Part shown: positions 1 to 13,003 of the stretch, one piece after another | Layout: each line of letters starts with the position of its first letter | How positions within the stretch are numbered: the first letter of the stretch is position 1 | DNA from: a virus | DNA: 64,000 bases | Direction: 5' to 3' (one strand) | Virus record (IMG/VR): IMGVR_UViG_3300032116_000064 | Span: 1-64,000 of that record | Made by a program: the position numbers and the translations under genes | Notes under the pieces: model-generated | What the model was told of the DNA's origin: nothing | Database searches by the model: none | The model's input: only the letters and a program-made list of their open reading frames with translations

Positions 1-251
1 TCACGCGAACCGGGCTTTCCTACCTTGGTGATCATAAGATCACTACCCCCTAAAACGCGGGGATCAACCTTTTCGCTCTTGACCTTGCCAGATCGACGCA
101 AAGCCTTGCGATTGAACTTCAAAACTTTTTCACTGCGAATCGGACCATACACTCCATCGGCTAGACTAGGCTGGTGAGGGATAGCGATTCCGAGAAAGCA
201 CATGCGAGCCTGTCGCTTTGCATCTTCGATGATTTGAAACTTGGTAGCCAT
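1..251 (-). CDS. small early-region hypothetical protein (3' end runs off window)
   Basis: Hand-translated: ATG at 251, MATKFQIIEDAKRQARMCFLGIAIPHQPSLADGVYGPIRSEKVLKFNRKALRRSGKVK..., open to base 1; AAAGGAAAAGAAA leader and promoter 284-312 upstream. Confidence 0.7.
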   Translation of the reverse strand, partial: MATKFQIIEDAKRQARMCFLGIAIPHQPSLADGVYGPIRSEKVLKFNRKALRRSGKVKSEKVDPRVLGGSDLMITKVGKPGSR

Positions 252-283
252 TTTCTTTTCCTTTGGGTTACTTATGATGATGG

Positions 284-312
284 ATTGTACGAAACTTTTC
301 TTGCTCTGTCAA
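284..312 (-). promoter_or_regulatory. sigma70-type promoter TTGACA-17-TACAAT
   Basis: Minus strand TTGACA(312-307) N17 TACAAT(289-284); the -35 overlaps the TGA stop of the upstream gene. Confidence 0.8.
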
Positions 313-512
313 GAGAGACTGAAACCCAGTTCCATTTCCAGAGACATTTTGCAAACCTTGTCACGAAGAGCGTGAAGTCTAGCGGCTTCTGCCTTATAGG
401 CTTCGTGCTGTTCACCCTGCGTAATCGGCAGGATGGTATCCATAATCCGATTTTCACGGTGGATAATGGCAAGGTGGATGTCTTTCAGTTCAGCAGTAGT
501 CAGGTTTCTCAT
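309..512 (-). CDS. small early-region hypothetical protein (67 aa)
   Basis: ORF track; purine-rich leader and own promoter at 547-575. Confidence 0.75.
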   Translation of the reverse strand: MRNLTTAELKDIHLAIIHRENRIMDTILPITQGEQHEAYKAEAARLHALRDKVCKMSLEMELGFSLS

Positions 513-538
513 TTCGTTTCTCTCTTTCTCTTTCTTAC

Positions 539-575
539 TTATCGGTATTCTATACGAGATTCTTTAGGTTGTCAA
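539..575 (-). promoter_or_regulatory. sigma70-type promoter TTGACA-17-TAGAAT with overlapping sigma28-like TAAA-N16-ACCGATAA
   Basis: TTGACA 575-570, TAGAAT 552-547; TAAA 566-563 and CCGATAA 545-539. Confidence 0.7.
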
Positions 576-576
576 G

Positions 577-729
577 TCACCATTCGCCATCATCTTGACC
601 GGGAATGTAGTCCCTTTCATAGACTTCTGTGACGATTTCGCAATGCTCACCACAAGCAGAGCAGATACCATAATCGGGGTTACTCTCACAACCACAGCAA
701 TCGGAAACGAAAAAAACTAACTCATTCAT
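577..729 (-). CDS. small Cys-rich putative zinc-ribbon protein (50 aa)
   Basis: Hand-translated MNELVFFVSDCCGCESNPDYGICSACGEHCEIVTEVYERDYIPGQDDGEW; CCG...CxxCGEHC motif; own promoter 757-784; not in ORF track (<60 aa). Confidence 0.75.
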   Translation of the reverse strand: MNELVFFVSDCCGCESNPDYGICSACGEHCEIVTEVYERDYIPGQDDGEW

Positions 730-756
730 AACTAACTCTCTTTCTTTCTTTCTCTT

Positions 757-784
757 ATTATACCAAACTTTTCCGTCCCGTCAA
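757..784 (-). promoter_or_regulatory. sigma70-type promoter TTGACG-16-TATAAT (extended -10 TG)
   Basis: TTGACG 784-779, TGGTATAAT ending 757. Confidence 0.75.
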
Positions 785-793
785 CCCCCTCTT

Positions 794-1024
794 TCAGCGG
801 GGGATTGCAATAAATCCCTTGAAATGGGAAAACGTCAACTTGAGAACCCTATTCGGATACTTTTCGTTGATGTACACTTGAGCAGTGCTTTTCCGATTAT
901 CGGTAGCACCGACATACTGTACAACCGTACCGTTTTCATCGGTAACTTTCCAAACCTTCTTTTGGACCATCTTGGGAAGGCTTGCAATAAAACTGTTAAT
1001 ATGGGTAACTTTTTCCATTTTCAT
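794..1024 (-). CDS. small hypothetical protein, paralog of 2438-2659
   Basis: About 70% identical by hand alignment to the 73-aa ORF at 2438-2659; ATG at 1024 overlaps upstream stop (TGATG); track start 1027 is TTG. Confidence 0.85.
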   Translation of the reverse strand: MKMEKVTHINSFIASLPKMVQKKVWKVTDENGTVVQYVGATDNRKSTAQVYINEKYPNRVLKLTFSHFKGFIAIPR

Positions 1025-1170
1025 CAACCTTTCATGCTTTCAAAAAACTTACGAACCATTTCATCATTCTTTTTTATATCCTTATTCACAACCGGAAGAC
1101 TATAAGCAATCTTCCTATTGTTTTCATTCTTGATTCTCTTAATCGCATTTTTCATTGTCTTATTCATCAT
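1024..1170 (-). CDS. small basic hypothetical protein (48 aa)
   Basis: Hand-translated MMNKTMKNAIKRIKNENNRKIAYSLPVVNKDIKKNDEMVRKFFESMKG; directly downstream of sigma54 promoter; coupled to the next gene. Confidence 0.65.
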   Translation of the reverse strand: MMNKTMKNAIKRIKNENNRKIAYSLPVVNKDIKKNDEMVRKFFESMKG

Positions 1171-1203
1171 CTTTCAAACTCTCTTTCTTATACCTATATA
1201 TAG

Positions 1204-1219
1204 AGCAATCGGTGTGCCA
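1204..1219 (-). promoter_or_regulatory. sigma54 (RpoN) -24/-12 promoter
   Basis: Minus strand TGGCAC-ACCGA-TTGCT matches TGGCAC-N5-TTGCW; about 35 nt upstream of ATG 1170. Confidence 0.7.
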
Positions 1220-1290
1220 AACATAGATTATTTTTTTGTGCGTATTTCGCGGGAAAAACGCTATGCTATTTTCTGTGCCTAGAGATTAAG

Positions 1291-1371
1291 CGTAGCATTT
1301 TGCTACAGTGTGTTGCATTTTGCTATAGCACTTTTGGCCGAGAAACTATAGCAGTGTAGCATTTTGCAACA
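1291..1371. promoter_or_regulatory. three 17-bp palindromes (TGTWGCA-TTT-TGCWACA), candidate enhancer-binding-protein sites
   Basis: CGTAGCATTTTGCTACA 1291-1307, TGTTGCATTTTGCTATA 1311-1327, TGTAGCATTTTGCAACA 1355-1371; 70-150 bp upstream of the sigma54 promoter. Confidence 0.6.
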
Positions 1372-1454
1372 GATACCCTATCTTACCACGCCTATTCCTT
1401 GAGCATGGGATATTTTATTCCTAAACACCTCATCGATACGATGTCCTCATTAGT

Positions 1455-1483
1455 CGTAAGTCTATATATAGCAAGGGTTTACG
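1455..1483. repeat. 29-bp 11-7-11 inverted-repeat site, copy 1
   Basis: CGTAAGTCTAT-ATATAGC-AAGGGTTTACG. Confidence 0.75.
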
Positions 1484-1507
1484 TCAAATCCGGCCCGCCG
1501 CCCTCGC

Positions 1508-1536
1508 CATAAGTCCTTATGTGGTAAGGCTTTACG
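1508..1536. repeat. 29-bp 11-7-11 inverted-repeat site, copy 2
   Basis: CATAAGTCCTT-ATGTGGT-AAGGCTTTACG. Confidence 0.7.
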
Positions 1537-1537
1537 T

Positions 1538-1603
1538 TCAATCCTTACACAGTGTACATACGAACAGCCCAATATACGATACCATGAATACTAGAGCGGT
1601 CAT
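1538..1603 (-). CDS. putative 21-aa hydrophobic peptide
   Basis: MTALVFMVSYIGLFVCTLCKD with GGGGA just upstream; stop abuts the 11-7-11 site. Confidence 0.4.
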   Translation of the reverse strand: MTALVFMVSYIGLFVCTLCKD

Positions 1604-1654
1604 TCTATCCCCTATTGTGGGTGGGTGCTTACCGGTGTGGGTAGGGTGATACGT

Positions 1655-1870
1655 TCATGTAGCATGAATGAACACCTGTTCACTCTTAGTCTGATTCGTG
1701 ATGGTCACGATCCAGTTACGACCACTACCATCCTCACGCATGATAGCATTGACAAGGCCAACGTGAGTATTACCCTTCGGGTCGATCACGGCGGTATACT
1801 TACCAGTTACCATAGATGCGAAGATGGTGTTGAGGTTATTCTTACGGATAGCGTATGCAGTGCCAAACAT
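1655..1870 (-). CDS. small early-region hypothetical protein (71 aa)
   Basis: ORF track; purine-rich leader; promoter 1904-1931. Confidence 0.8.
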   Translation of the reverse strand: MFGTAYAIRKNNLNTIFASMVTGKYTAVIDPKGNTHVGLVNAIMREDGSGRNWIVTITNQTKSEQVFIHAT

Positions 1871-1903
1871 TTCTTTTCTCTTTCTTTTGGTGATGATGAA
1901 TGT

Positions 1904-1931
1904 ATTGTACAGGAATCTTTTTATTTGTCAA
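1904..1931 (-). promoter_or_regulatory. sigma70-type promoter TTGACA-16-TACAAT
   Basis: TTGACA 1931-1926 overlaps the TGA of ORF 1928-2047; TACAAT 1909-1904. Confidence 0.75.
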
Positions 1932-2047
1932 ATCCCGTCAAGGTATCCGCGAATAGCCTGCCCAACAACGTGAGCAGAGTACGACGCGAACGCAGCGACC
2001 GAAATGTATCCAACGAGCAGCGTATAATCAGCAAAAGTCAAAACCAT
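1928..2047 (-). CDS. small membrane peptide (39 aa)
   Basis: Hand-translated MVLTFADYTLLVGYISVAAFASYSAHVVGQAIRGYLDGI; one hydrophobic segment; starts 1 nt after upstream stop. Confidence 0.6.
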   Translation of the reverse strand: MVLTFADYTLLVGYISVAAFASYSAHVVGQAIRGYLDGI

Positions 2048-2048
2048 T

Positions 2049-2174
2049 TCAGCACTCATACCTTTTCAGAAGGGTAAAGAAATCATTCAACGAGAGATTG
2101 TAGCCTACCTCAATACCGTGAACAAAGAGATTGTATCGGTGAGGGCTTTCGATTGTCCAAGTGATTCGTGTCAT
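2049..2174 (-). CDS. small hypothetical protein (41 aa), probably leaderless
   Basis: MTRITWTIESPHRYNLFVHGIEVGYNLSLNDFFTLLKRYEC; ATG lies 6 nt after TATAAT. Confidence 0.6.
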   Translation of the reverse strand: MTRITWTIESPHRYNLFVHGIEVGYNLSLNDFFTLLKRYEC

Positions 2175-2180
2175 GTTGCT

Positions 2181-2209
2181 ATTATACCTATCGGCTTTCC
2201 GCGTGTCAA
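2181..2209 (-). promoter_or_regulatory. perfect sigma70 promoter TTGACA-17-TATAAT with nested GCCGATA
   Basis: TTGACA 2209-2204, TATAAT 2186-2181, GCCGATA 2195-2189. Confidence 0.85.
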
Positions 2210-2227
2210 GTCCTTAAAGAATATTTT

Positions 2228-2377
2228 TTAGAGAATCGTACCATCACCACGGATACGGTACATGATCCCGCCAATGCTATAGAGGTAGATACCCTCGCCC
2301 ATGTTCTGAACGAACGTTGCGGAATATCCATGACGGGCGACAAGGCGACGAACAACGTTTTGAACTTGGATGGTCAT
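2228..2377 (-). CDS. small hypothetical protein (49 aa)
   Basis: MTIQVQNVVRRLVARHGYSATFVQNMGEGIYLYSIGGIMYRIRGDGTIL; AAAGGAAAAAAGAA leader; own promoter. Confidence 0.7.
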   Translation of the reverse strand: MTIQVQNVVRRLVARHGYSATFVQNMGEGIYLYSIGGIMYRIRGDGTIL

Positions 2378-2401
2378 TTCTTTTTTCCTTTGCTTTTCTC
2401 T

Positions 2402-2429
2402 ATTATAGCGTATGGTTTTTAGTTGTCAA
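2402..2429 (-). promoter_or_regulatory. sigma70 promoter TTGACA-16-TATAAT
   Basis: TTGACA 2429-2424, TATAAT 2407-2402. Confidence 0.8.
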
Positions 2430-2437
2430 GCCCCTTT

Positions 2438-2659
2438 TCAGCGAATCGTAATCAATCCGCCAAAGTGTGAGAAGGTAAGGGTAAGAGCCTGAGAAGGATA
2501 CTTCTCATCGATATACTTCTGAGCGGTATCCTTGCGGTTATCGGTAGCACTCACACACTGGATAACCTTTCCATTCTTATCGGTAACCTTCCAGATTTTC
2601 TTTTCCACAATCCTAGGAAGGCTAGCGATGAAGTCGTTGATATGAGTTGTCTTTTCCAT
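2438..2659 (-). CDS. small hypothetical protein, paralog of 794-1024
   Basis: Shared THINxFIASLP...WKVTDxNG...ATDNRKxTAQxYIxEKYP...LTFSHF. Confidence 0.85.
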   Translation of the reverse strand: MEKTTHINDFIASLPRIVEKKIWKVTDKNGKVIQCVSATDNRKDTAQKYIDEKYPSQALTLTFSHFGGLITIR

Positions 2660-2689
2660 TTTCTTTCTCTCTTTCTTTCTTATGCTCTT

Positions 2690-2717
2690 ATTATACCATA
2701 CTTATCGGCCATGTCAA
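2690..2717 (-). promoter_or_regulatory. sigma70 promoter TTGACA-16-TATAAT with nested GCCGATAA
   Basis: TTGACA 2717-2712, TGGTATAAT ending 2690, GCCGATAA 2709-2702. Confidence 0.8.
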
Positions 2718-2776
2718 GGGGCAATCTCAAATATTTTTAAATATAATCTTGTGCCAAAGCAATAAATATTCTCTAT

Positions 2777-2792
2777 AGCAAACGCTGTGCCA
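2777..2792 (-). promoter_or_regulatory. sigma54 -24/-12 promoter
   Basis: Minus strand TGGCAC-AGCGT-TTGCT; a third TGGCAC with degenerate -12 lies at 2741-2756. Confidence 0.65.
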
Positions 2793-2840
2793 AATACATT
2801 ATTCTCTTAAACAGAAGATCGTGATGATCATGTGATTAGT

Positions 2841-2869
2841 CGTAAGTCTATGTGCTATAAGGGTTTACG
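2841..2869. repeat. 29-bp 11-7-11 inverted-repeat site, copy 3
   Basis: CGTAAGTCTAT-GTGCTAT-AAGGGTTTACG; arms identical to copy 1; flanks also conserved (TAAACA-N4-ATCG-N4-GAT-N6-ATTAGT before, CAAA-N2-CGGCCC after). Confidence 0.8.
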
Positions 2870-3027
2870 GCAAACGCGGCCCACCCTAGACTCTCTGATG
2901 TTAAGATAGGGGATATAGGGGGGTTTTACTTTATAGAAGGTTTTTTCTACGACATGCCGGAAAGTCGAGGGTAGTTGGAACGCAATAATCATTAAATCTT
3001 TGATAAGTATTACCCCATCTTCTTGGA

Positions 3028-3843
3028 TCACCCTTGAGTCTGCCTATCTCTTGCATTTTCTCGGTACGATCCACCCTCAAGATGTTTTGGATTCACACAT
3101 CGTCGGTTGTTACACTTGTGTCTGACTAGTTCTGGATATTCACCAGTATATTTGAACAGTGAAACGCGATGAGGTTTGAAATATCTTGTTGCTACCTGTA
3201 TACTTCTACCATATCCATGATAATCAACACTTCTCCACTCCCAACAACCGCTGTCGGTAACAGTATAGTTATCCTCATTTAATTTCTGAGCCGCCATCAA
3301 TAGCTCTTCCTTTACCTCTTCTATATCGATATTGCGCCAAGCGTTATATAGGCCACAATATGAAGCTATCATCTTACTCTCTTTAAACAGTAAATCATTT
3401 TCATCTTCTAGCGACCAAATATAACAATTGATTGATAATCGATCATTGTAGTGAAACTGCATAAAAGCGTTGTAGTGACTATTAGAGTTTAGAGATGCTA
3501 GATGGTTTTTGTATCTCTCCCCAATATTAGTAGAACTACCAACATAATATCCTACATATCCATTCTTCTTCCTCATTTCGATAACGTATATGCCGCATTG
3601 TTCTAGATTGAAATCAACTGTAGATTTCTGAGATAATTCTATCGAAGAAATAGTTTTAATATCAAAGTCTTTACAAATCTTTTTGATTTGTGCGTAACTT
3701 AATCCTGTAATAGTTTCTATTTCTAAAAACGTAAGATGTTTATTTCTTAGAGAACGAATCTGATTTGCTTCAGCCAACCCAAATCCAAATTGATTTCTTT
3801 TACGTCGTTTGATCACATCCATTGAACCTTTTGGTCTACTCAT
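3028..3843 (-). CDS. free-standing homing endonuclease-like protein with GIY-YIG and HNH domains
   Basis: GIYVI...YYVGSS..IGERYKNH...E (GIY-YIG); C-terminal CWEW...GYG...HRVS...VRHKCNNRRCVNPKHL...EN (HNH_3-like); N-terminal HTH-like segment. Confidence 0.8.
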   Translation of the reverse strand: MSRPKGSMDVIKRRKRNQFGFGLAEANQIRSLRNKHLTFLEIETITGLSYAQIKKICKDFDIKTISSIELSQKSTVDFNLEQCGIYVIEMRKKNGYVGYYVGSSTNIGERYKNHLASLNSNSHYNAFMQFHYNDRLSINCYIWSLEDENDLLFKESKMIASYCGLYNAWRNIDIEEVKEELLMAAQKLNEDNYTVTDSGCWEWRSVDYHGYGRSIQVATRYFKPHRVSLFKYTGEYPELVRHKCNNRRCVNPKHLEGGSYRENARDRQTQG

Positions 3844-4188: not shown

Positions 4189-4942
4189 AACTTGTAAGCA
4201 GGGCGACCTAGATAATAATGATATTATTCTATGTGGACTACTTGATATAGAAAAGGGAAGCATAGTACTATCAGAGGCTAAATATTACAATTATATATCT
4301 GATGAAAACTCTATAGCTAATACTATTGGATTCGGCCCCGACAATAAGTTCTTCTACAAAATTTCTTCTTATAAAGATAATGCTGTTGTTGGATATGAGA
4401 AGGGTATTGGATATGCCTATGAACATAATAATCAAATCTACTTTAAGCGTGAAGTCCCCCTAATTTACGGTAAAAACGAAAATCACGTTCAATTTATTAA
4501 AAGCTCGTCTAGATTTTATTTTCCAGAAGATTCCATTAGCGTAATAGTCTCTGAGATTCCACCGAGTTTAGCATTACTATATCATGCTCAAAATTCTTTA
4601 GTGGTGGCTAGAGATCCATTTTTTCCAGTTACTCTATCATTACCAAATGATTCTTTACTAGCTACTATTAACGACAATATATGCGCACTATCTTTTGATA
4701 GTAAAGAGTTTAGCGATTACGTGTCGGAAGCTTTATCTAAATACTCAAAACAGCTATCTTTGCGAACTAGTAAGCTTAACGTCAACAAGTTGGCAGCAAA
4801 GCAGTTACAATTAGAACCGTCATCTGGCACTAATGCTAAAAAGGGGACTTTTATTTACGATGAAGAAACTGATACCGTGCAGTTTTATAACGGTGAGAAA
4901 TGGAGAACTCTACAGTGGGTAGACGAAGAAAAAGCGGAATGA
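4166..4942 (+). CDS. hypothetical protein, possibly virion-associated
   Basis: N-terminus resembles that of 39986-42085 (IIL.G...FY.I...YE.G.G); C-terminal KGTFIYDEETDTVQFYNGEKW fibre-type motif. Confidence 0.55.
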   Translation: MTPKIAIETCKQGDLDNNDIILCGLLDIEKGSIVLSEAKYYNYISDENSIANTIGFGPDNKFFYKISSYKDNAVVGYEKGIGYAYEHNNQIYFKREVPLIYGKNENHVQFIKSSSRFYFPEDSISVIVSEIPPSLALLYHAQNSLVVARDPFFPVTLSLPNDSLLATINDNICALSFDSKEFSDYVSEALSKYSKQLSLRTSKLNVNKLAAKQLQLEPSSGTNAKKGTFIYDEETDTVQFYNGEKWRTLQWVDEEKAE

Positions 4943-5427
4943 AAATCCCTAAAAATATGACAGAGGCCCAAGTTATAGATCAGATTAACATTGTTGTTAA
5001 TAGAATGTCGGCCCGCTATACATTCCACGGTTATGAGGTTGATGATATAAAACAAGAAGCTTTCATGATTTGTATGGACGCACTGGAGCGATATGATAGC
5101 AACCGCCCCCTTGAGAATTTCCTAGCAGTTCACTTATCTAACAGGCTTAAAAACTTTGTTCGTGATAACTTTTACACTAAGGGCGAAGAAGAAAAGAAGC
5201 GAGTTCTAAAACCAAGCAGTTTGTCTTATGAAGATTTTACCCCTAGTACAGAATACAACAATGACAATAAAATAGATGCCAGAAGTTTACAAGACACCGT
5301 TGACCGCAAGTTACCTTCAGAATATCGCGCAGATTACTTAAAGTTAATCAATGATGTATACGTGCCAAAGAAACGAAGAGAAGAAATCATAGCGATAATT
5401 AAGGAGTTGTTAGATGAAGAAGGGTAG
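4939..5427 (+). CDS. phage RNA polymerase sigma factor (sigma70 region-2 family)
   Basis: DDIKQEAFMICMDALERYDSNRPLENFLAVHLSNRLKNFVRD matches sigma region 2; ATG 4939 overlaps upstream stop (ATGA). Confidence 0.75.
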   Translation: MKIPKNMTEAQVIDQINIVVNRMSARYTFHGYEVDDIKQEAFMICMDALERYDSNRPLENFLAVHLSNRLKNFVRDNFYTKGEEEKKRVLKPSSLSYEDFTPSTEYNNDNKIDARSLQDTVDRKLPSEYRADYLKLINDVYVPKKRREEIIAIIKELLDEEG

Positions 5428-9630: not shown

Positions 9631-9887
9631 AAAGAAATTACGATAATCCCGCATACTCTGATTTTAGAAAATCCGTCTTAAAAAGAGATAAGAGAAAGTG
9701 TATGATGCCGGGATGTGGTAGAAAAACATGCTTAAATGTTCATCATATTAAGAAATGGGCTTCTGCCTCTTCTCTGAGATATGATCCAGATAATGGTATA
9801 ACACTATGTAAACAATGTCATGATTCTATAAAGGGCAAGGAAATCCATTATGAAGCTCTATTTAAGGAAATAATTAATGCAATATAA
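9627..9887 (+). CDS. HNH endonuclease (packaging-associated type)
   Basis: RD...CMMPGC...HHIK...NGITLCKQCH. Confidence 0.85.
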   Translation: MKRNYDNPAYSDFRKSVLKRDKRKCMMPGCGRKTCLNVHHIKKWASASSLRYDPDNGITLCKQCHDSIKGKEIHYEALFKEIINAI

Positions 9888-10377
9888 AGAAGCCCCTAAA
9901 TTCACTGTGATCAAAGACACAAGAGAGCAAGATGGATATTTTTTTCGTGAGTTCAATACTTGCGCTGGCATGGTCGAAGAAAAACTCGACACCGGAGACT
10001 ATTCCATAAAAGGTATGGAAGATAAGATATGCATAGAAAGAAAAGGATGTGTTGAGGAATTGGCAGTTAATCTTGGTCAAAAGAAACATGCTTTTTTAGC
10101 AGAAATAGAAAGAATGATGCCATTCCCTCATAAATTTATTGTTTTAGAATTTTCTTTGGATGATCTAATAAAGTTCCCAGATGAAACAAGAATACCAGTT
10201 AAGAACAAAGGCTCCTTAAAGATAACTGGTAAATATATGCTTAAGTGTTTGTTTGAATTTCAGTTGTACAATAATGTTCAAATACTATTTTGTGGAAATA
10301 AAACTAATGCATTTATTGCTGTTAGTAGCATACTAAAACGTGTCAATGAAATGTATACAATAGGGAGGAAAAAATGA
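9877..10377 (+). CDS. ERCC4-domain nuclease
   Basis: IKDTREQ, LDTGDYS, IERKG motifs. Confidence 0.8.
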   Translation: MQYKEAPKFTVIKDTREQDGYFFREFNTCAGMVEEKLDTGDYSIKGMEDKICIERKGCVEELAVNLGQKKHAFLAEIERMMPFPHKFIVLEFSLDDLIKFPDETRIPVKNKGSLKITGKYMLKCLFEFQLYNNVQILFCGNKTNAFIAVSSILKRVNEMYTIGRKK

Positions 10378-11018
10378 TGTCTGAACCAGAACTATTGAAA
10401 GATTTTCATGATTACGGGGCTAATATTGCCACTAGGGAAATATTTCTTCACAATCATTACCACGCCGAAGATAACCAAAACCCCGGTGTTGAATATAGAA
10501 TGTCTAATACCTTCATTAAGAACTTGAGGGCATTAGATATGAGGAGCAATGCTAATATAACTATTCATTGCCACAGTATTGGCGGTGAATGGGCTGACGG
10601 AATGGCTATTTATGATGCTATACAGATGTGTAGATCATATGTGACAATTATCATCTATGGTCAGGCTGAATCTATGAGTAGTATTTTTATGCAAGCGGCA
10701 GATTATCGTTATATGACTCCAAATTCCCATTTTATGTCTCATTATGGATCTATTGATATTAATACCGACTATCTTAGTGCTTTGAGTGAATCTGATTATC
10801 ATAGAAAAACAGCTGATACTATGTTTAATATCTATGCCGGAAGGTGTGTAGAGGGCAAGTTCTTCTATGAAAAATTTGGAAAGAAGCCAAGCGTCAAACA
10901 GGTTCGCCAATATTTAATCAGAAAACTGAAATCTGGAGATTGGTATCTCAATGCGGAAGAAACTGTATATTACGGTTTTGCTGATTCTATATTACGAAAC
11001 TGGCATTTCACAGAATGA
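10374..11018 (+). CDS. ClpP-like serine protease
   Basis: HSIGG...GMAIYDAI...GQAESMSS (Ser), FMSHYG (His), DWYLNAEE..YGFAD (Asp). Confidence 0.8.
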   Translation: MMSEPELLKDFHDYGANIATREIFLHNHYHAEDNQNPGVEYRMSNTFIKNLRALDMRSNANITIHCHSIGGEWADGMAIYDAIQMCRSYVTIIIYGQAESMSSIFMQAADYRYMTPNSHFMSHYGSIDINTDYLSALSESDYHRKTADTMFNIYAGRCVEGKFFYEKFGKKPSVKQVRQYLIRKLKSGDWYLNAEETVYYGFADSILRNWHFTE

Positions 11019-13003
11019 AAAAAGATAAGTTAAAAATTATAGATGAGGCTTGGCTTGGATTAGATGTCATAGATACAGACATTTTTAATCCAATGTCTAT
11101 CTTAAATCCTTCTGAAGACGATTTTCATCTCAAACTATCTTGGCTTATGAGTAGGCCAGAGTATTTGCCATTCTTATGTCATCAAGTATTGAATATTCAA
11201 CTACTTCCATCTCAGTCTCTCATCATCAATGAACTTTGGAATAGAAAATTCCCTATGCTTGTTGGTAGTCGAGGTCTTGGAAAATCATTTAAATTAGCTC
11301 TTTATTCTATACTTCGTGGAATGTTATTACCCAAAAGAAAAATTGTTATAGTCGGTGCAGCATTTAGACAATCAAAAGTTCTTTTTGAATATATGGAAAC
11401 TATATGGCGTAATGCCCCGTTATTAAGGGATATGTGTGATAGTAATAGTGGTCCCACTAGAGATGTTGATAGATGCACCATGAGAATTAATGAGAGTGTT
11501 ATAACATGCTTACCATTAGGTGATGGTCAAAAGATTAGAGGTCAACGTGCTAACGATATTATTGCAGACGAGTTTGCTTCTATTCCTAGGGATATATTTG
11601 AAAATGTGGTCGCAGGCTTTGCTGCTGTTAGTGCTGATCCTGTACAAAATGTTAAGAGAATGTCTGCAAAAAAGAAGGCAGCTGAATTAGGTATAGAAAT
11701 AGAAACAGAAGAAGAGAATCCAGAAATAAAAGACAATCAAATTATATTGTCTGGTACAGCATACTATGACTTTAATCACTTTGCCACATATTGGAAGAAA
11801 TGGAAATCAATAATAAAAAGTCGTGGTAATATAGCAAAACTAACTGAGGTATTTGGTGGAGAACAGCCGCCAGACACATTTGATTGGCGTCAATACTCTA
11901 TAATACGAATGCCTTATGAACTCTTACCAGTTGGGTTTATGGATGCTGACCAAGTGGCACGATCAAAAGCTACCGTTCATGCTGGTATTTATCAAATGGA
12001 ATATGGGGCTTGTTTTACTAGAGACAGTCAAGGATTCTTTAAGAGATCTCTTATAGAGTCTTGTGTTGTTGGGAATAATGAAACACCTATATTTGATTCT
12101 AAGAAGGACATAATAAAATTTGAAGCTTCTCTTATTGGCGATGTCAATAAAAGATATGTTTTTGGTGTTGACCCAGCATCTGAAGTTGATAACTTTAGTA
12201 TTACTATAATAGAGATTCATGGAGATCACAGAAGAATAGTTCATTGCTGGACTACAACTAGACAAGAACATAAAGAGAAAGTAAAAAAGGGTTATGCTCA
12301 AGAATCAGATTTCTATGCATACTGCGCCAGAAAAATTAGGGATTTAATGAGACTATTTCCATGCGTTCATATTGCTATGGATGCGCAAGGTGGTGGTGTT
12401 GCAGTTATGGAATCGTTACATGACAAAGATAAAATCAAAGATGGCGAGATGGCAATTTGGCCCACTATTGATGACGATAAGCCTAAAGATACAGATGGAG
12501 AAAGAGGATTGCATATATTAGAAATGTGTCAATTCGCTAAGTATGATTGGCTGGCAGAAGCTAATCACGGTATGAGAAAAGATTTTGAAGATAAAGTTTT
12601 GTTATTTCCATTCTTTGACTCTATAACACTTGGATTGTCAAACTCTGAGGATGGTTTAAAAAACAGAATGTTTGATACCTTAGAGGAATGTGTCATGGAT
12701 ATAGAAGAACTAAAAGATGAATTATCTATGATTCAGATGACTCAAACATCTAATGGCAGAGATAGATGGGATACTCCAGAGGTTATAGTTGGTACTGGTA
12801 AAAAGAGTAAAATGCGAAAAGATAGATATTCTGCACTTTTAATGGCAAATATGGCAGCAAGAACATTGCAGCGTACTCCAACTCCAGAAGCATATGAGTT
12901 TTATGGTGGTTTTGCTACCGGTGGCCACGTTCCAGTTAAAGAAGACGAGAAGCTTTATACTGGCCCAAGTTGGTTCTCTGATAACATGAAAGATGTGTAT
13001 TAA
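11015..13003 (+). CDS. terminase large subunit
   Basis: Walker A GSRGLGKS, RGQRANDIIADE Walker B, LSGT motif III, RNase H-like GVDPAS and MDAQGGG, KDRYSAL. Confidence 0.9.
   Translation: MKKDKLKIIDEAWLGLDVIDTDIFNPMSILNPSEDDFHLKLSWLMSRPEYLPFLCHQVLNIQLLPSQSLIINELWNRKFPMLVGSRGLGKSFKLALYSILRGMLLPKRKIVIVGAAFRQSKVLFEYMETIWRNAPLLRDMCDSNSGPTRDVDRCTMRINESVITCLPLGDGQKIRGQRANDIIADEFASIPRDIFENVVAGFAAVSADPVQNVKRMSAKKKAAELGIEIETEEENPEIKDNQIILSGTAYYDFNHFATYWKKWKSIIKSRGNIAKLTEVFGGEQPPDTFDWRQYSIIRMPYELLPVGFMDADQVARSKATVHAGIYQMEYGACFTRDSQGFFKRSLIESCVVGNNETPIFDSKKDIIKFEASLIGDVNKRYVFGVDPASEVDNFSITIIEIHGDHRRIVHCWTTTRQEHKEKVKKGYAQESDFYAYCARKIRDLMRLFPCVHIAMDAQGGGVAVMESLHDKDKIKDGEMAIWPTIDDDKPKDTDGERGLHILEMCQFAKYDWLAEANHGMRKDFEDKVLLFPFFDSITLGLSNSEDGLKNRMFDTLEECVMDIEELKDELSMIQMTQTSNGRDRWDTPEVIVGTGKKSKMRKDRYSALLMANMAARTLQRTPTPEAYEFYGGFATGGHVPVKEDEKLYTGPSWFSDNMKDVY

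What the first reader, a model, noticed from the sequence alone, without database searches (positions are those of the whole stretch)
1422..2886. Recombinase-like 11-7-11 sites punctuate a modular early gene array (possible phage integron-like shuffling system)
Seen: three 29-bp sites at 1455, 1508 and 2841 with inverted 11-bp arms (CGTAAGTC.. / ..GGTTTACG) and a variable 7-bp spacer. Copies 1 and 3 have identical arms. They sit in an approximately 80-bp conserved frame (TAAACA-N4-ATCG-N4-GAT-N6-ATTAGT-site-N-CAAA-N2-CGGCCC) 1386 bp apart, each on the upstream side of a sigma54 promoter and a copy of the same paralogous gene. Known: tyrosine recombinase core sites (XerCD dif, loxP, att) are inverted 11-13-bp arms around 6-8-bp spacers. 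Inference: these sites delimit exchangeable blocks of host-takeover genes, acted on by a phage or host recombinase. A repressor-operator role is the main alternative. The differing spacers would disfavour direct recombination between copies, and no recombinase is encoded in this window.
Basis: partly seen in the sequence, partly recalled or inferred. Interest (0 to 1): 0.75.

Follow-up and report, generated by a model that had tools for sequence, protein, structure and literature searches.

The report
Phage double-palindrome protein docking sites
The three 29-base sites are real copies of a rigid double-palindrome DNA element that hundreds of uncultured phages place between their early genes; it most likely docks a still unknown DNA-binding protein that controls nearby promoters, and it is not a recombinase target.

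Summary
They belong to an element shared by more than 200 uncultured phage contigs. It consists of two imperfect palindromes (CGTAA-N4-TT-N7-AA-N4-TTACG) 53 bp apart around a GC-rich core, and it occurs only in the array of small early genes.

- **Pairing:** the arms show no compensatory change, and the inner arm bases often cannot pair. The conservation is of sequence, as expected for a protein site rather than a hairpin.
- **Polarity:** promoters lie on one side only. 79% of sigma54-type boxes lie within 150 bp of a dyad, many at a fixed 14-15 nt.
- **Recombinase reading:** the 7-bp centres differ among copies within a genome. No tyrosine, serine or HUH recombinase, no sigma54 and no sigma54 activator was found in this genome or in two complete relatives.
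- **Gene shuffling:** one clear mosaic junction with the closest relative lies inside a unit. However, 73% of synteny breaks are at junctions without a dyad.

The recombinase/integron reading is not supported. The binding protein and its effect remain unknown. Earlier follow-ups in this scan reported the same element on other phage genomes, and I found no paper describing it.

The parts
1455..1483 (+). Dyad site 1, the promoter-side ('A') site of the complete unit
1484..1507 (.). 24-bp GC-rich spacer between the two dyads (core CGGCCCGCCGCCC)
   Evidence: a GC-rich core is conserved at this position across relatives
1508..1536 (+). Dyad site 2 (distal 'B' site), 53 bp after site 1
   Evidence: 53 bp is the spacing in 135 of about 210 neighbouring pairs
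2841..2869 (+). Dyad site 3, the A site of the terminal unit at the junction between the early array and the + strand genes
2870..2886 (.). Half spacer of the truncated terminal unit. The B site is missing, and the closest relative is truncated at the same point
1412..1454 (.). Clade-specific conserved frame (TAAACA..ATCG..GAT..ATTAGT) on the promoter side of site 1. Just upstream of it lies a decayed sigma54-type box that is intact in G001
2798..2840 (.). Second copy of the same frame, on the promoter side of site 3
2778..2792 (-). Sigma54-type -24/-12 box pointing in the direction of the genes. The centre of site 3 is about 89 bp upstream of its predicted start
1205..1219 (-). Sigma54-type -24/-12 box in front of genes 1170-1024 and 1027-794. 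Sites 1 and 2 are about 276 and 329 bp upstream
2690..2717 (-). Consensus sigma70 early promoter (12 of 12), downstream of the sigma54-type box, in front of gene 2659-2438
2438..2659 (-). 73-aa early gene, paralogue 1, first gene of the group headed by site 3
794..1027 (-). 77-aa early gene, paralogue 2, second gene of the group headed by sites 1 and 2

Best explanation
The sites are docking sites on double-stranded DNA for a sequence-specific protein that has not been identified; it could be phage or host. A full unit is two dyads, each with two 11-15-bp half-sites (TTGACG-TAA-N4-TT). The dyads are 53 bp apart, about five helical turns, so both face the same side of the helix, with a GC-rich core between them. 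The unit has polarity. Its B side faces the end of the upstream gene. Its A side faces the promoters of the next gene group: sigma70 early promoters and, in a quarter of units, sigma54-type boxes at fixed distances. I infer that a dimer on each dyad, perhaps a tetramer across the unit, switches or insulates the adjacent promoters, above all the sigma54-type boxes. Because the unit is repeated, it also offers patches of homology where gene groups are occasionally exchanged. Shown here: the conservation pattern, the spacing, the lack of pairing selection, the polarity, the coupling to the boxes, and the absence of recombinase genes. Inferred: protein binding and its regulatory effect.
For: - About 1070 loose dyads lie in 1.95 Mb of fetched loci. 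They are confined to one 10-20-kb early array per genome.
- **Spacing.** Neighbouring dyads are 53 bp apart in 135 pairs and 52 bp in 34, of about 210.
- **Sequence, not pairing, is conserved.** Only CGTAA/TTACG and TT/AA are invariant, and the 7-bp centre carries almost no information. On 44 units, 79.4% of cells pair against 81.4% in shuffles, and the covariation score is 0.083 against 0.121. The inner arm positions of site A fail to pair in 30-43 of 76 cases.
- **Non-equivalent half-sites.** The four half-sites have position-specific variants: GTCG, GTGC, GTCC, ACCC.
- **Polarity.** In 64 units that could be oriented, all sigma70 and sigma54-type motifs within 150 bp lie on the A side.
- **Coupling to the boxes.** There are 238 sigma54-type boxes against 11 in shuffles, and 79% lie within 150 bp of a dyad against 14% for random positions. 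The site starts 28-29 nt after the GG of the box in 68 cases.
- **The window fits the pattern**.
Against: - No binding protein was identified. The conserved small proteins of the arrays have no DNA-binding family match.
- 75% of units have no sigma54-type box nearby, so control of such boxes cannot be the whole function.
- Seven consensus sigma70 promoters in the window work with only two units between them.
- In the commonest arrangement the box is aimed into the dyads and against the genes, which no textbook enhancer or operator scheme predicts.
- Site B prefers G-T/T-G combinations on one strand (30-34 of 57 cases). This would also suit an RNA read from that strand.
Confidence: 0.6

Rival explanations
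1. The sites are core sites of a site-specific recombinase (Xer-, Cre- or integron-like) that excises and inserts gene blocks.
For: The geometry is 11-7-11. The sites lie between gene groups. One mosaic junction with G001 falls inside a unit. Junctions that contain a dyad are non-collinear slightly more often, 84% against 73%.
Against: The centres differ among copies within a genome. No Phage_integrase, Resolvase or Y1_Tnp domain was found in G000, in the complete G001 and G005, or in G002. Sequence rather than structure is conserved, the opposite of attC. Cassettes carry their own promoters. 73% of breaks are at junctions without a dyad.
Confidence: 0.04
2. The units exist mainly as homology patches for general recombination that shuffle early gene modules, like the PeSL cassettes of T4-type phages. 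Any protein binding would be secondary.
For: The array is highly mosaic, and gene-sized modules recur in different orders in many contigs. The junction with G001 is inside a unit. PeSL repeats are documented to mediate such shuffling and to form mini-circles (PMC2839356; PMC4122927).
Against: Homology patches need no fixed 53-bp spacing, no invariant half-site blocks, no polarity and no fixed distance to sigma54-type boxes. The excess of breaks at dyads is modest, and most breaks lie elsewhere. The units are often the only conserved island between unrelated flanks, which points to selection on the unit itself.
Confidence: 0.12
3. The sites act as RNA or single-stranded DNA hairpins: a terminator, a 5' stabiliser of transcripts started at the sigma54-type box, or a processing site.
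For: Each site is an imperfect palindrome. In many relatives the site starts at the predicted +1 of a sigma54-type box. Site B keeps G-T/T-G combinations on that strand. A Pirellulales hairpin has the same stem sequence.
Against: Pairing is not above shuffles and there is no covariation. The inner stem of site A is non-complementary in 40-57% of copies. There is no T-run, and no terminator-like site lies in the array. 74% of strict pairs have no box aimed at them. In the direction of the genes the RNA would carry A-C mismatches. No Rfam family matches.
Confidence: 0.07
4. The dyads bind an abundant host architectural protein (IHF-like or another DNA-bending or origin protein). They would bend, insulate or compact the early region, or act as a sponge for that protein.
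For: The invariant TAA and TT blocks, four bases apart, coincide with the CAA-N4-TTR core of the IHF consensus read on either strand. This was a lead from earlier scan notes. IHF sites are classic companions of sigma54 promoters (established knowledge). No phage-encoded binder was found.
Against: The C of the IHF core is present in only about 41% of half-sites, and the WAT part is absent. The extra invariant CG and TTGACG flanks are not IHF features. The host is unknown. The Planctomycetes link is weak. In a complete Pirellulaceae genome the single copy lies about 1 Mb from both dnaA-type genes, and the GC-skew sampling was uninformative.
Confidence: 0.15

Closest known systems
PeSL (promoter-early stem-loop) cassettes of T4-type phages (Arbiol et al. 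2010, PMC2839356; Comeau et al. 2014, PMC4122927)
   Same: Both are short composite motifs repeated many times in a hyperplastic region of small early genes, next to strong host-type early promoters, and both are associated with gain, loss and exchange of gene modules between relatives.
   Different: A PeSL is a sigma70 promoter fused to a G/C-rich stem-loop that terminates transcription. Here the repeat is a rigid pair of sequence-conserved dyads with no pairing selection and no T-run. It is separate from the sigma70 promoters, has polarity, and is often welded to sigma54-type boxes.
Enhancer (UAS) sites of bacterial sigma54 promoters, for example the paired NtrC sites of glnAp2 (established knowledge)
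   Same: Paired dyad sites in helical phase sit near -24/-12 boxes. Site 3 (about -89) and a minority class in relatives (about -80 and -133) have textbook upstream geometry.
   Different: No AAA+ activator gene is present in the phage genomes. The commonest geometry puts the site at +1 of a box aimed into it and against the genes. 75% of units lack a box.
Tyrosine-recombinase core sites (dif, loxP, att cores) and integron attC sites
   Same: Roughly 11-7-11 inverted-arm geometry, and a position between gene blocks.
   Different: Centres are not shared between copies. No recombinase was found. Sequence rather than structure is conserved. Cassettes carry their own promoters.

Membership tests
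Tyrosine-recombinase core site (XerCD dif / loxP / att core) | Inverted 11-13-bp arms around a 6-8-bp central region | tested here: met
   The geometry is 11-7-11, but the arms are only 7-8 of 11 complementary.
Tyrosine-recombinase core site (XerCD dif / loxP / att core) | Partner sites share the central (overlap) sequence | tested here: not met
   There are three different centres in the window, 15 of 15 distinct in G001, and 597 distinct of 654 within loci.
Tyrosine-recombinase core site (XerCD dif / loxP / att core) | A cognate recombinase is available | tested here: not met
   No PF00589, PF00239 or PF01797 match in G000, G001 (complete), G005 (complete) or G002. A host enzyme cannot be excluded because the host is unknown.
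Tyrosine-recombinase core site (XerCD dif / loxP / att core) | Recombinant junctions or excised circles that cross over inside the centre | not testable with these tools
   No read data are available.
Integron (attC cassette array) | attC sites conserve a folded structure while their sequence varies | tested here: not met
   The opposite holds: invariant sequence blocks and no covariation (79.4% paired against 81.4% in shuffles).
Integron (attC cassette array) | Promoterless cassettes downstream of one common promoter, with an IntI gene at the array | tested here: not met
   Seven consensus sigma70 promoters lie in 2.9 kb, one per gene or gene pair. No integrase was found.
Enhancer (UAS) of a sigma54-dependent promoter | A -24/-12 box (TGGCAC-N5-TTGC) nearby | tested here: met
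   Two boxes in the contig, both next to the sites. In array loci there are 238 boxes against 11 in shuffles, 79% of them within 150 bp of a dyad.
Enhancer (UAS) of a sigma54-dependent promoter | Phased dyad sites about 80-150 bp upstream of the box | tested here: inconclusive
   Met for site 3 (about -89) and for a minority class. Sites 1 and 2 lie at about -276 and -329. The main class has the site at +1 of the box.
Enhancer (UAS) of a sigma54-dependent promoter | An AAA+ enhancer-binding protein that binds the sites | tested here: not met
   No convincing PF00158 match. There were none in G000-G004, and G005 gave one weak match (E 0.0017) in a 310-aa frame. Host activators cannot be tested.
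PeSL cassette (T4-type phages) | A repeated composite motif in a hyperplastic early-gene region | tested here: met
PeSL cassette (T4-type phages) | A stem-loop that terminates transcription, fused to a sigma70 promoter | tested here: not met
   No pairing selection and no terminator-like site in the array. Sigma70 promoters lie at variable distances of 40-120 bp, in 18 of 64 oriented units.
PeSL cassette (T4-type phages) | Indels and replacements between relatives are bounded by the motif | tested here: inconclusive
   One clear junction lies inside a unit. Overall, breaks occur at 84% of junctions with a dyad and 73% without, and most breaks are at junctions without a dyad.
IHF binding site (WATCAANNNNTTR) | A match to the 13-bp consensus | tested here: inconclusive
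   The TAA and TT blocks fit the CAA-N4-TTR core at the right spacing, but the C is present in about 41% of half-sites and WAT is not conserved.

The most novel reading that the evidence does not exclude
The double dyad is the docking platform of an undescribed control system for the host sigma54 RNA polymerase that works without a classical AAA+ activator. A phage or host protein bound at the dyads would hold, load or block the polymerase at boxes set 14-15 nt away. Hundreds of uncultured phages would use it to time their early genes, or to silence them through back-aimed antisense transcription.
Probability: 0.25. Interest if true: 0.8.

Novelty: new variant of a known kind. Interest (0 to 1): 0.55.

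Why it matters
Phage early regions are where the host is taken over, yet their control is known for only a handful of model phages. This is a rigid, polar, four-half-site DNA element with hundreds of copies across an uncultured phage lineage. It is frequently coupled to sigma54-type boxes although the phages encode no activator. That points to a regulator, and possibly a use of sigma54 polymerase, that has not been described. The element is also a practical marker for the early region of these phages, and a defined bait for finding the protein.

Tried and rejected
- **Known RNA families and tRNAs.** None in the window.
- **Cultured relatives.** No DNA match in 50,697 phage records. The terminase is at best 25-28% identical to isolates, so no host can be assigned.
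- **Looking for the binding protein.** PHROG and Pfam scans of the ten array genes gave nothing useful. I clustered ORFs from 127 array loci and listed the small proteins shared by the complete genomes G001 and G005. Their Pfam scans showed only a Sigma70_r2 protein, an ERCC4 nuclease and a Kyanoviridae Gp96-like protein.
- **The 73-aa paralogue.** It folds with confidence (pLDDT 90) but has no significant PDB match. The best Foldseek E-value is 0.33 and the best VIA-align Z is 4.1. The Atlas gave nothing above noise.
- **Sigma54 DNA-binding domain.** Absent from the phage genomes.
- **Host link through bacterial genomes.** Most single hits are ordinary terminator hairpins, which a palindromic pattern is expected to pick up. 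The multi-site hits are phage-like contigs binned into MAGs of many phyla, so they give no host.
- **The Pirellulales hairpin as a possible host dif or origin site.** Its flanking genes are not conserved. It lies about 1 Mb from dnaA-type genes in a complete genome. Its apical stem covaries, which suits an RNA rather than a dif. GC-skew sampling of 20 stretches was too noisy to place the origin or terminus.
- **Literature.** Searches for sigma54 promoters in phages found no description of this element.
Full report

The window is the first 64 kb of a 101.5-kb viral contig, 35% G+C, judged 64% complete. The three 29-bp sites are at 1455, 1508 and 2841 on the + strand. The core TAAGTC-N8-20-TTTACG gives three matches against 0.10 expected. 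There are no further copies in the contig.

Sites 1 and 3 have identical arms, and all three centres differ. The arms are only 7-8 of 11 complementary. The 88-nt frame repeated 1386 bp apart is real, at 70% identity. So are the two TGGCAC-N5-TTGC boxes on the - strand, the only ones in the contig, and the two paralogous genes, 71% identical.

The left 2.9 kb holds small - strand genes. Seven of them have consensus sigma70 promoters matching 11-12 of 12 positions, and there is no terminator-like site in the array.

**The sites belong to a widespread element**

A loose dyad pattern (TAA-N4-WT-N7-AW-N4-TTA) finds about 1070 distinct sites in 1.95 Mb of fetched loci.

Within a genome the sites are confined to one array of small genes:
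- G001 is the closest relative, a 161-kb assembly whose ends overlap by 127 bp. Its sites run from 155.9 kb through the end to 11.8 kb.
- G005 (230 kb) has them at 161-181 kb.
- G002 has them at 24-40 kb.

The window's contig is cut inside this array and holds only its last 2.9 kb.

**Anatomy of a unit**

Neighbouring dyads are 53 bp apart in 135 pairs and 52 bp in 34, of about 210. That is five helical turns. A GC-rich core lies between them. Conservation extends to TTGACG/CGTCAA on the outer flanks.

Only CGTAA, TT, AA and TTACG are invariant. The 7-bp centre has almost no information. The inner four bases of each half-site come in a few types (GTCG, GTCC, AGTG, ACCC, GTGC, CTCC), with different preferences at each of the four half-site positions. 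In an unbiased sample the two halves of a site are non-randomly different. GT/AC pairs occur 75 times against 37 expected, and GT/GT 4 times against 23.

**Hairpin or protein site?**

On 44 aligned units, 79.4% of cells pair against 81.4% in shuffles. All 500 shuffles do at least as well. The covariation score is 0.083 against 0.121. In site A, positions 5/19 and 6/18 fail to pair in 30 and 43 of 76 copies.

So sequence is conserved and pairing is not. This pattern fits a protein site on duplex DNA. It argues against RNA hairpins, cruciforms and attC-type folded substrates.

**Polarity and partners**

When units are oriented by the distal TAAACC half-site (64 units), every sigma70 or sigma54-type motif within 150 bp lies on the other, A side. 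Genes run from the B side towards the A side.

Sigma54-type boxes are about twenty times enriched in array loci, 238 against 11 in shuffles. 79% of them lie within 150 bp of a dyad, against 14% for random positions. Only 25% of units have a box.

The commonest geometry is a box aimed into the unit. The site starts 28-29 nt after the GG, at about the predicted +1. This box often has a second, back-to-back box 12 bp away that points with the genes, which places the dyads near -80 and -133 for it.

**How the window fits**

- Sites 2 and 1 form a full unit. B faces the end of gene 1870-1655. A faces the three palindromes at 1289-1372, the box at 1219-1205 and genes 1170-794.
- Site 3 is an A site with half a spacer, about 89 bp upstream of the start predicted for the box at 2792-2778. 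A 12-of-12 sigma70 promoter and the paralogue follow it.
- G001 has the same truncated terminal unit at the early/late junction.
- G001 also has an intact box aimed into its copy of the site 1-2 unit (the box at 9834, dyads at 9889/9942), where the window has a decayed one.

**The recombinase reading**

The centres differ among copies: 15 of 15 in G001, and 597 distinct of 654 within loci. Searches found no tyrosine recombinase, serine recombinase or HUH transposase domain in this contig, in the complete G001 and G005, or in G002.

The array is strongly mosaic, with gene-sized modules recurring in different orders in many contigs. One junction with G001 lies inside a unit. G001 10352-10765 matches window 2471-2886, and G001's next block (10714-11064) matches window 1449-1541 and 1608-1815.

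Across 183 non-redundant loci, junctions with a dyad are non-collinear in 84% of cases against 73% without. But 5096 of 6949 breaks lie where there is no dyad. These counts are not independent, so the difference is only indicative. The exchange is therefore best explained by ordinary homologous recombination among repeated regulatory DNA. That process is documented for PeSL cassettes of T4-type phages (PMC2839356; PMC4122927). It needs no dedicated site-specific system.

**Who binds?**

This is unknown. The phage genomes encode no sigma54 activator domain and no sigma54 DNA-binding domain. The conserved small array proteins have no informative family. The paralogue family comprises 149 clusters, all annotated as hypothetical. 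It folds confidently but matches nothing solved.

Earlier scan notes suggested IHF-like sites and a link to Planctomycetes replication origins. I tested both:
- **IHF.** The invariant blocks do match the CAA-N4-TTR core, but the rest of the IHF consensus is missing.
- **Planctomycetes.** About 25 Pirellulales genomes carry one conserved 110-nt hairpin whose stem reads like the dyad. It is about 1 Mb from dnaA-type genes in a complete genome. Its neighbours are not conserved, and its tip covaries like an RNA. GC-skew sampling was uninformative. I treat the resemblance as unexplained.

**Verdict**

The integron/recombinase mechanism is not supported. Module exchange is a by-product.

The same element family was reported by several earlier follow-ups of this scan on other phage genomes, with the same conclusions. 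I reproduced the key tests independently here. I found no publication describing it.

Noticed in passing
window 1167-1372: The region holding three 17-bp palindromes (GTAGCATTTTGCTAC type, 1289-1372) and the sigma54-type box is about 75-84% identical in many otherwise unrelated contigs. In most of them homology stops at the start codon of the downstream gene, so the control region looks like a conserved, portable module.
   Followed up: partly
window 3028-3843 (-): A 271-aa protein with GIY-YIG and HNH_3 domains, probably a homing endonuclease, sits between the terminal dyad unit and the + strand genes. The closest relative G001 has only about 64 bp here, so this is an insertion in the window's genome.
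   Followed up: partly
window 4900-5427 (+): A 175-aa protein with a Sigma70_r2 domain, so a phage sigma-like factor. Its family is the most frequent neighbour of the dyad arrays, found in 56 of 127 array loci.
   Followed up: partly
window 2438-2659 and 794-1027 (-): The paralogous 73/77-aa early protein belongs to a strongly conserved family (149 clusters, mostly 65-88% identical) with no name or Pfam domain. The model is confident (pLDDT 90, helix-strand-strand-helix-strand) and has no significant match among solved structures.
   Followed up: yes
L257:3760-3930; also L287, L249 and about 20 further Pirellulales loci: A conserved hairpin of about 110 nt, single copy in a complete Pirellulaceae genome, has a stem reading CGTAAGTCCTT-N7-AAGGCTTTACG like the phage dyad. 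Its apical stem covaries. It matches no Rfam family, and its flanking genes are not conserved.
   Followed up: partly
L094:3550-4035 and 34 other array loci (not in the window): An ERCC4-type structure-specific nuclease gene is a frequent resident of the dyad arrays of relatives.
   Followed up: no
window 1544-1566, and downstream of the B site in many relatives: A GTGTACA / TGTACA-type palindromic motif recurs 10-20 bp beyond the B site in many contigs. It may be a second operator.
   Followed up: no
related loci (nr set): A minor class of dyad pairs is spaced 41-42 bp apart (15 pairs) instead of 53 bp, about four helical turns instead of five.
   Followed up: no
window 1-2900 (- strand leaders): The early genes have purine-rich GAAAGAGA-type leaders without a clear GGAGG, while some + strand genes have ordinary Shine-Dalgarno sequences (read).
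   Followed up: no
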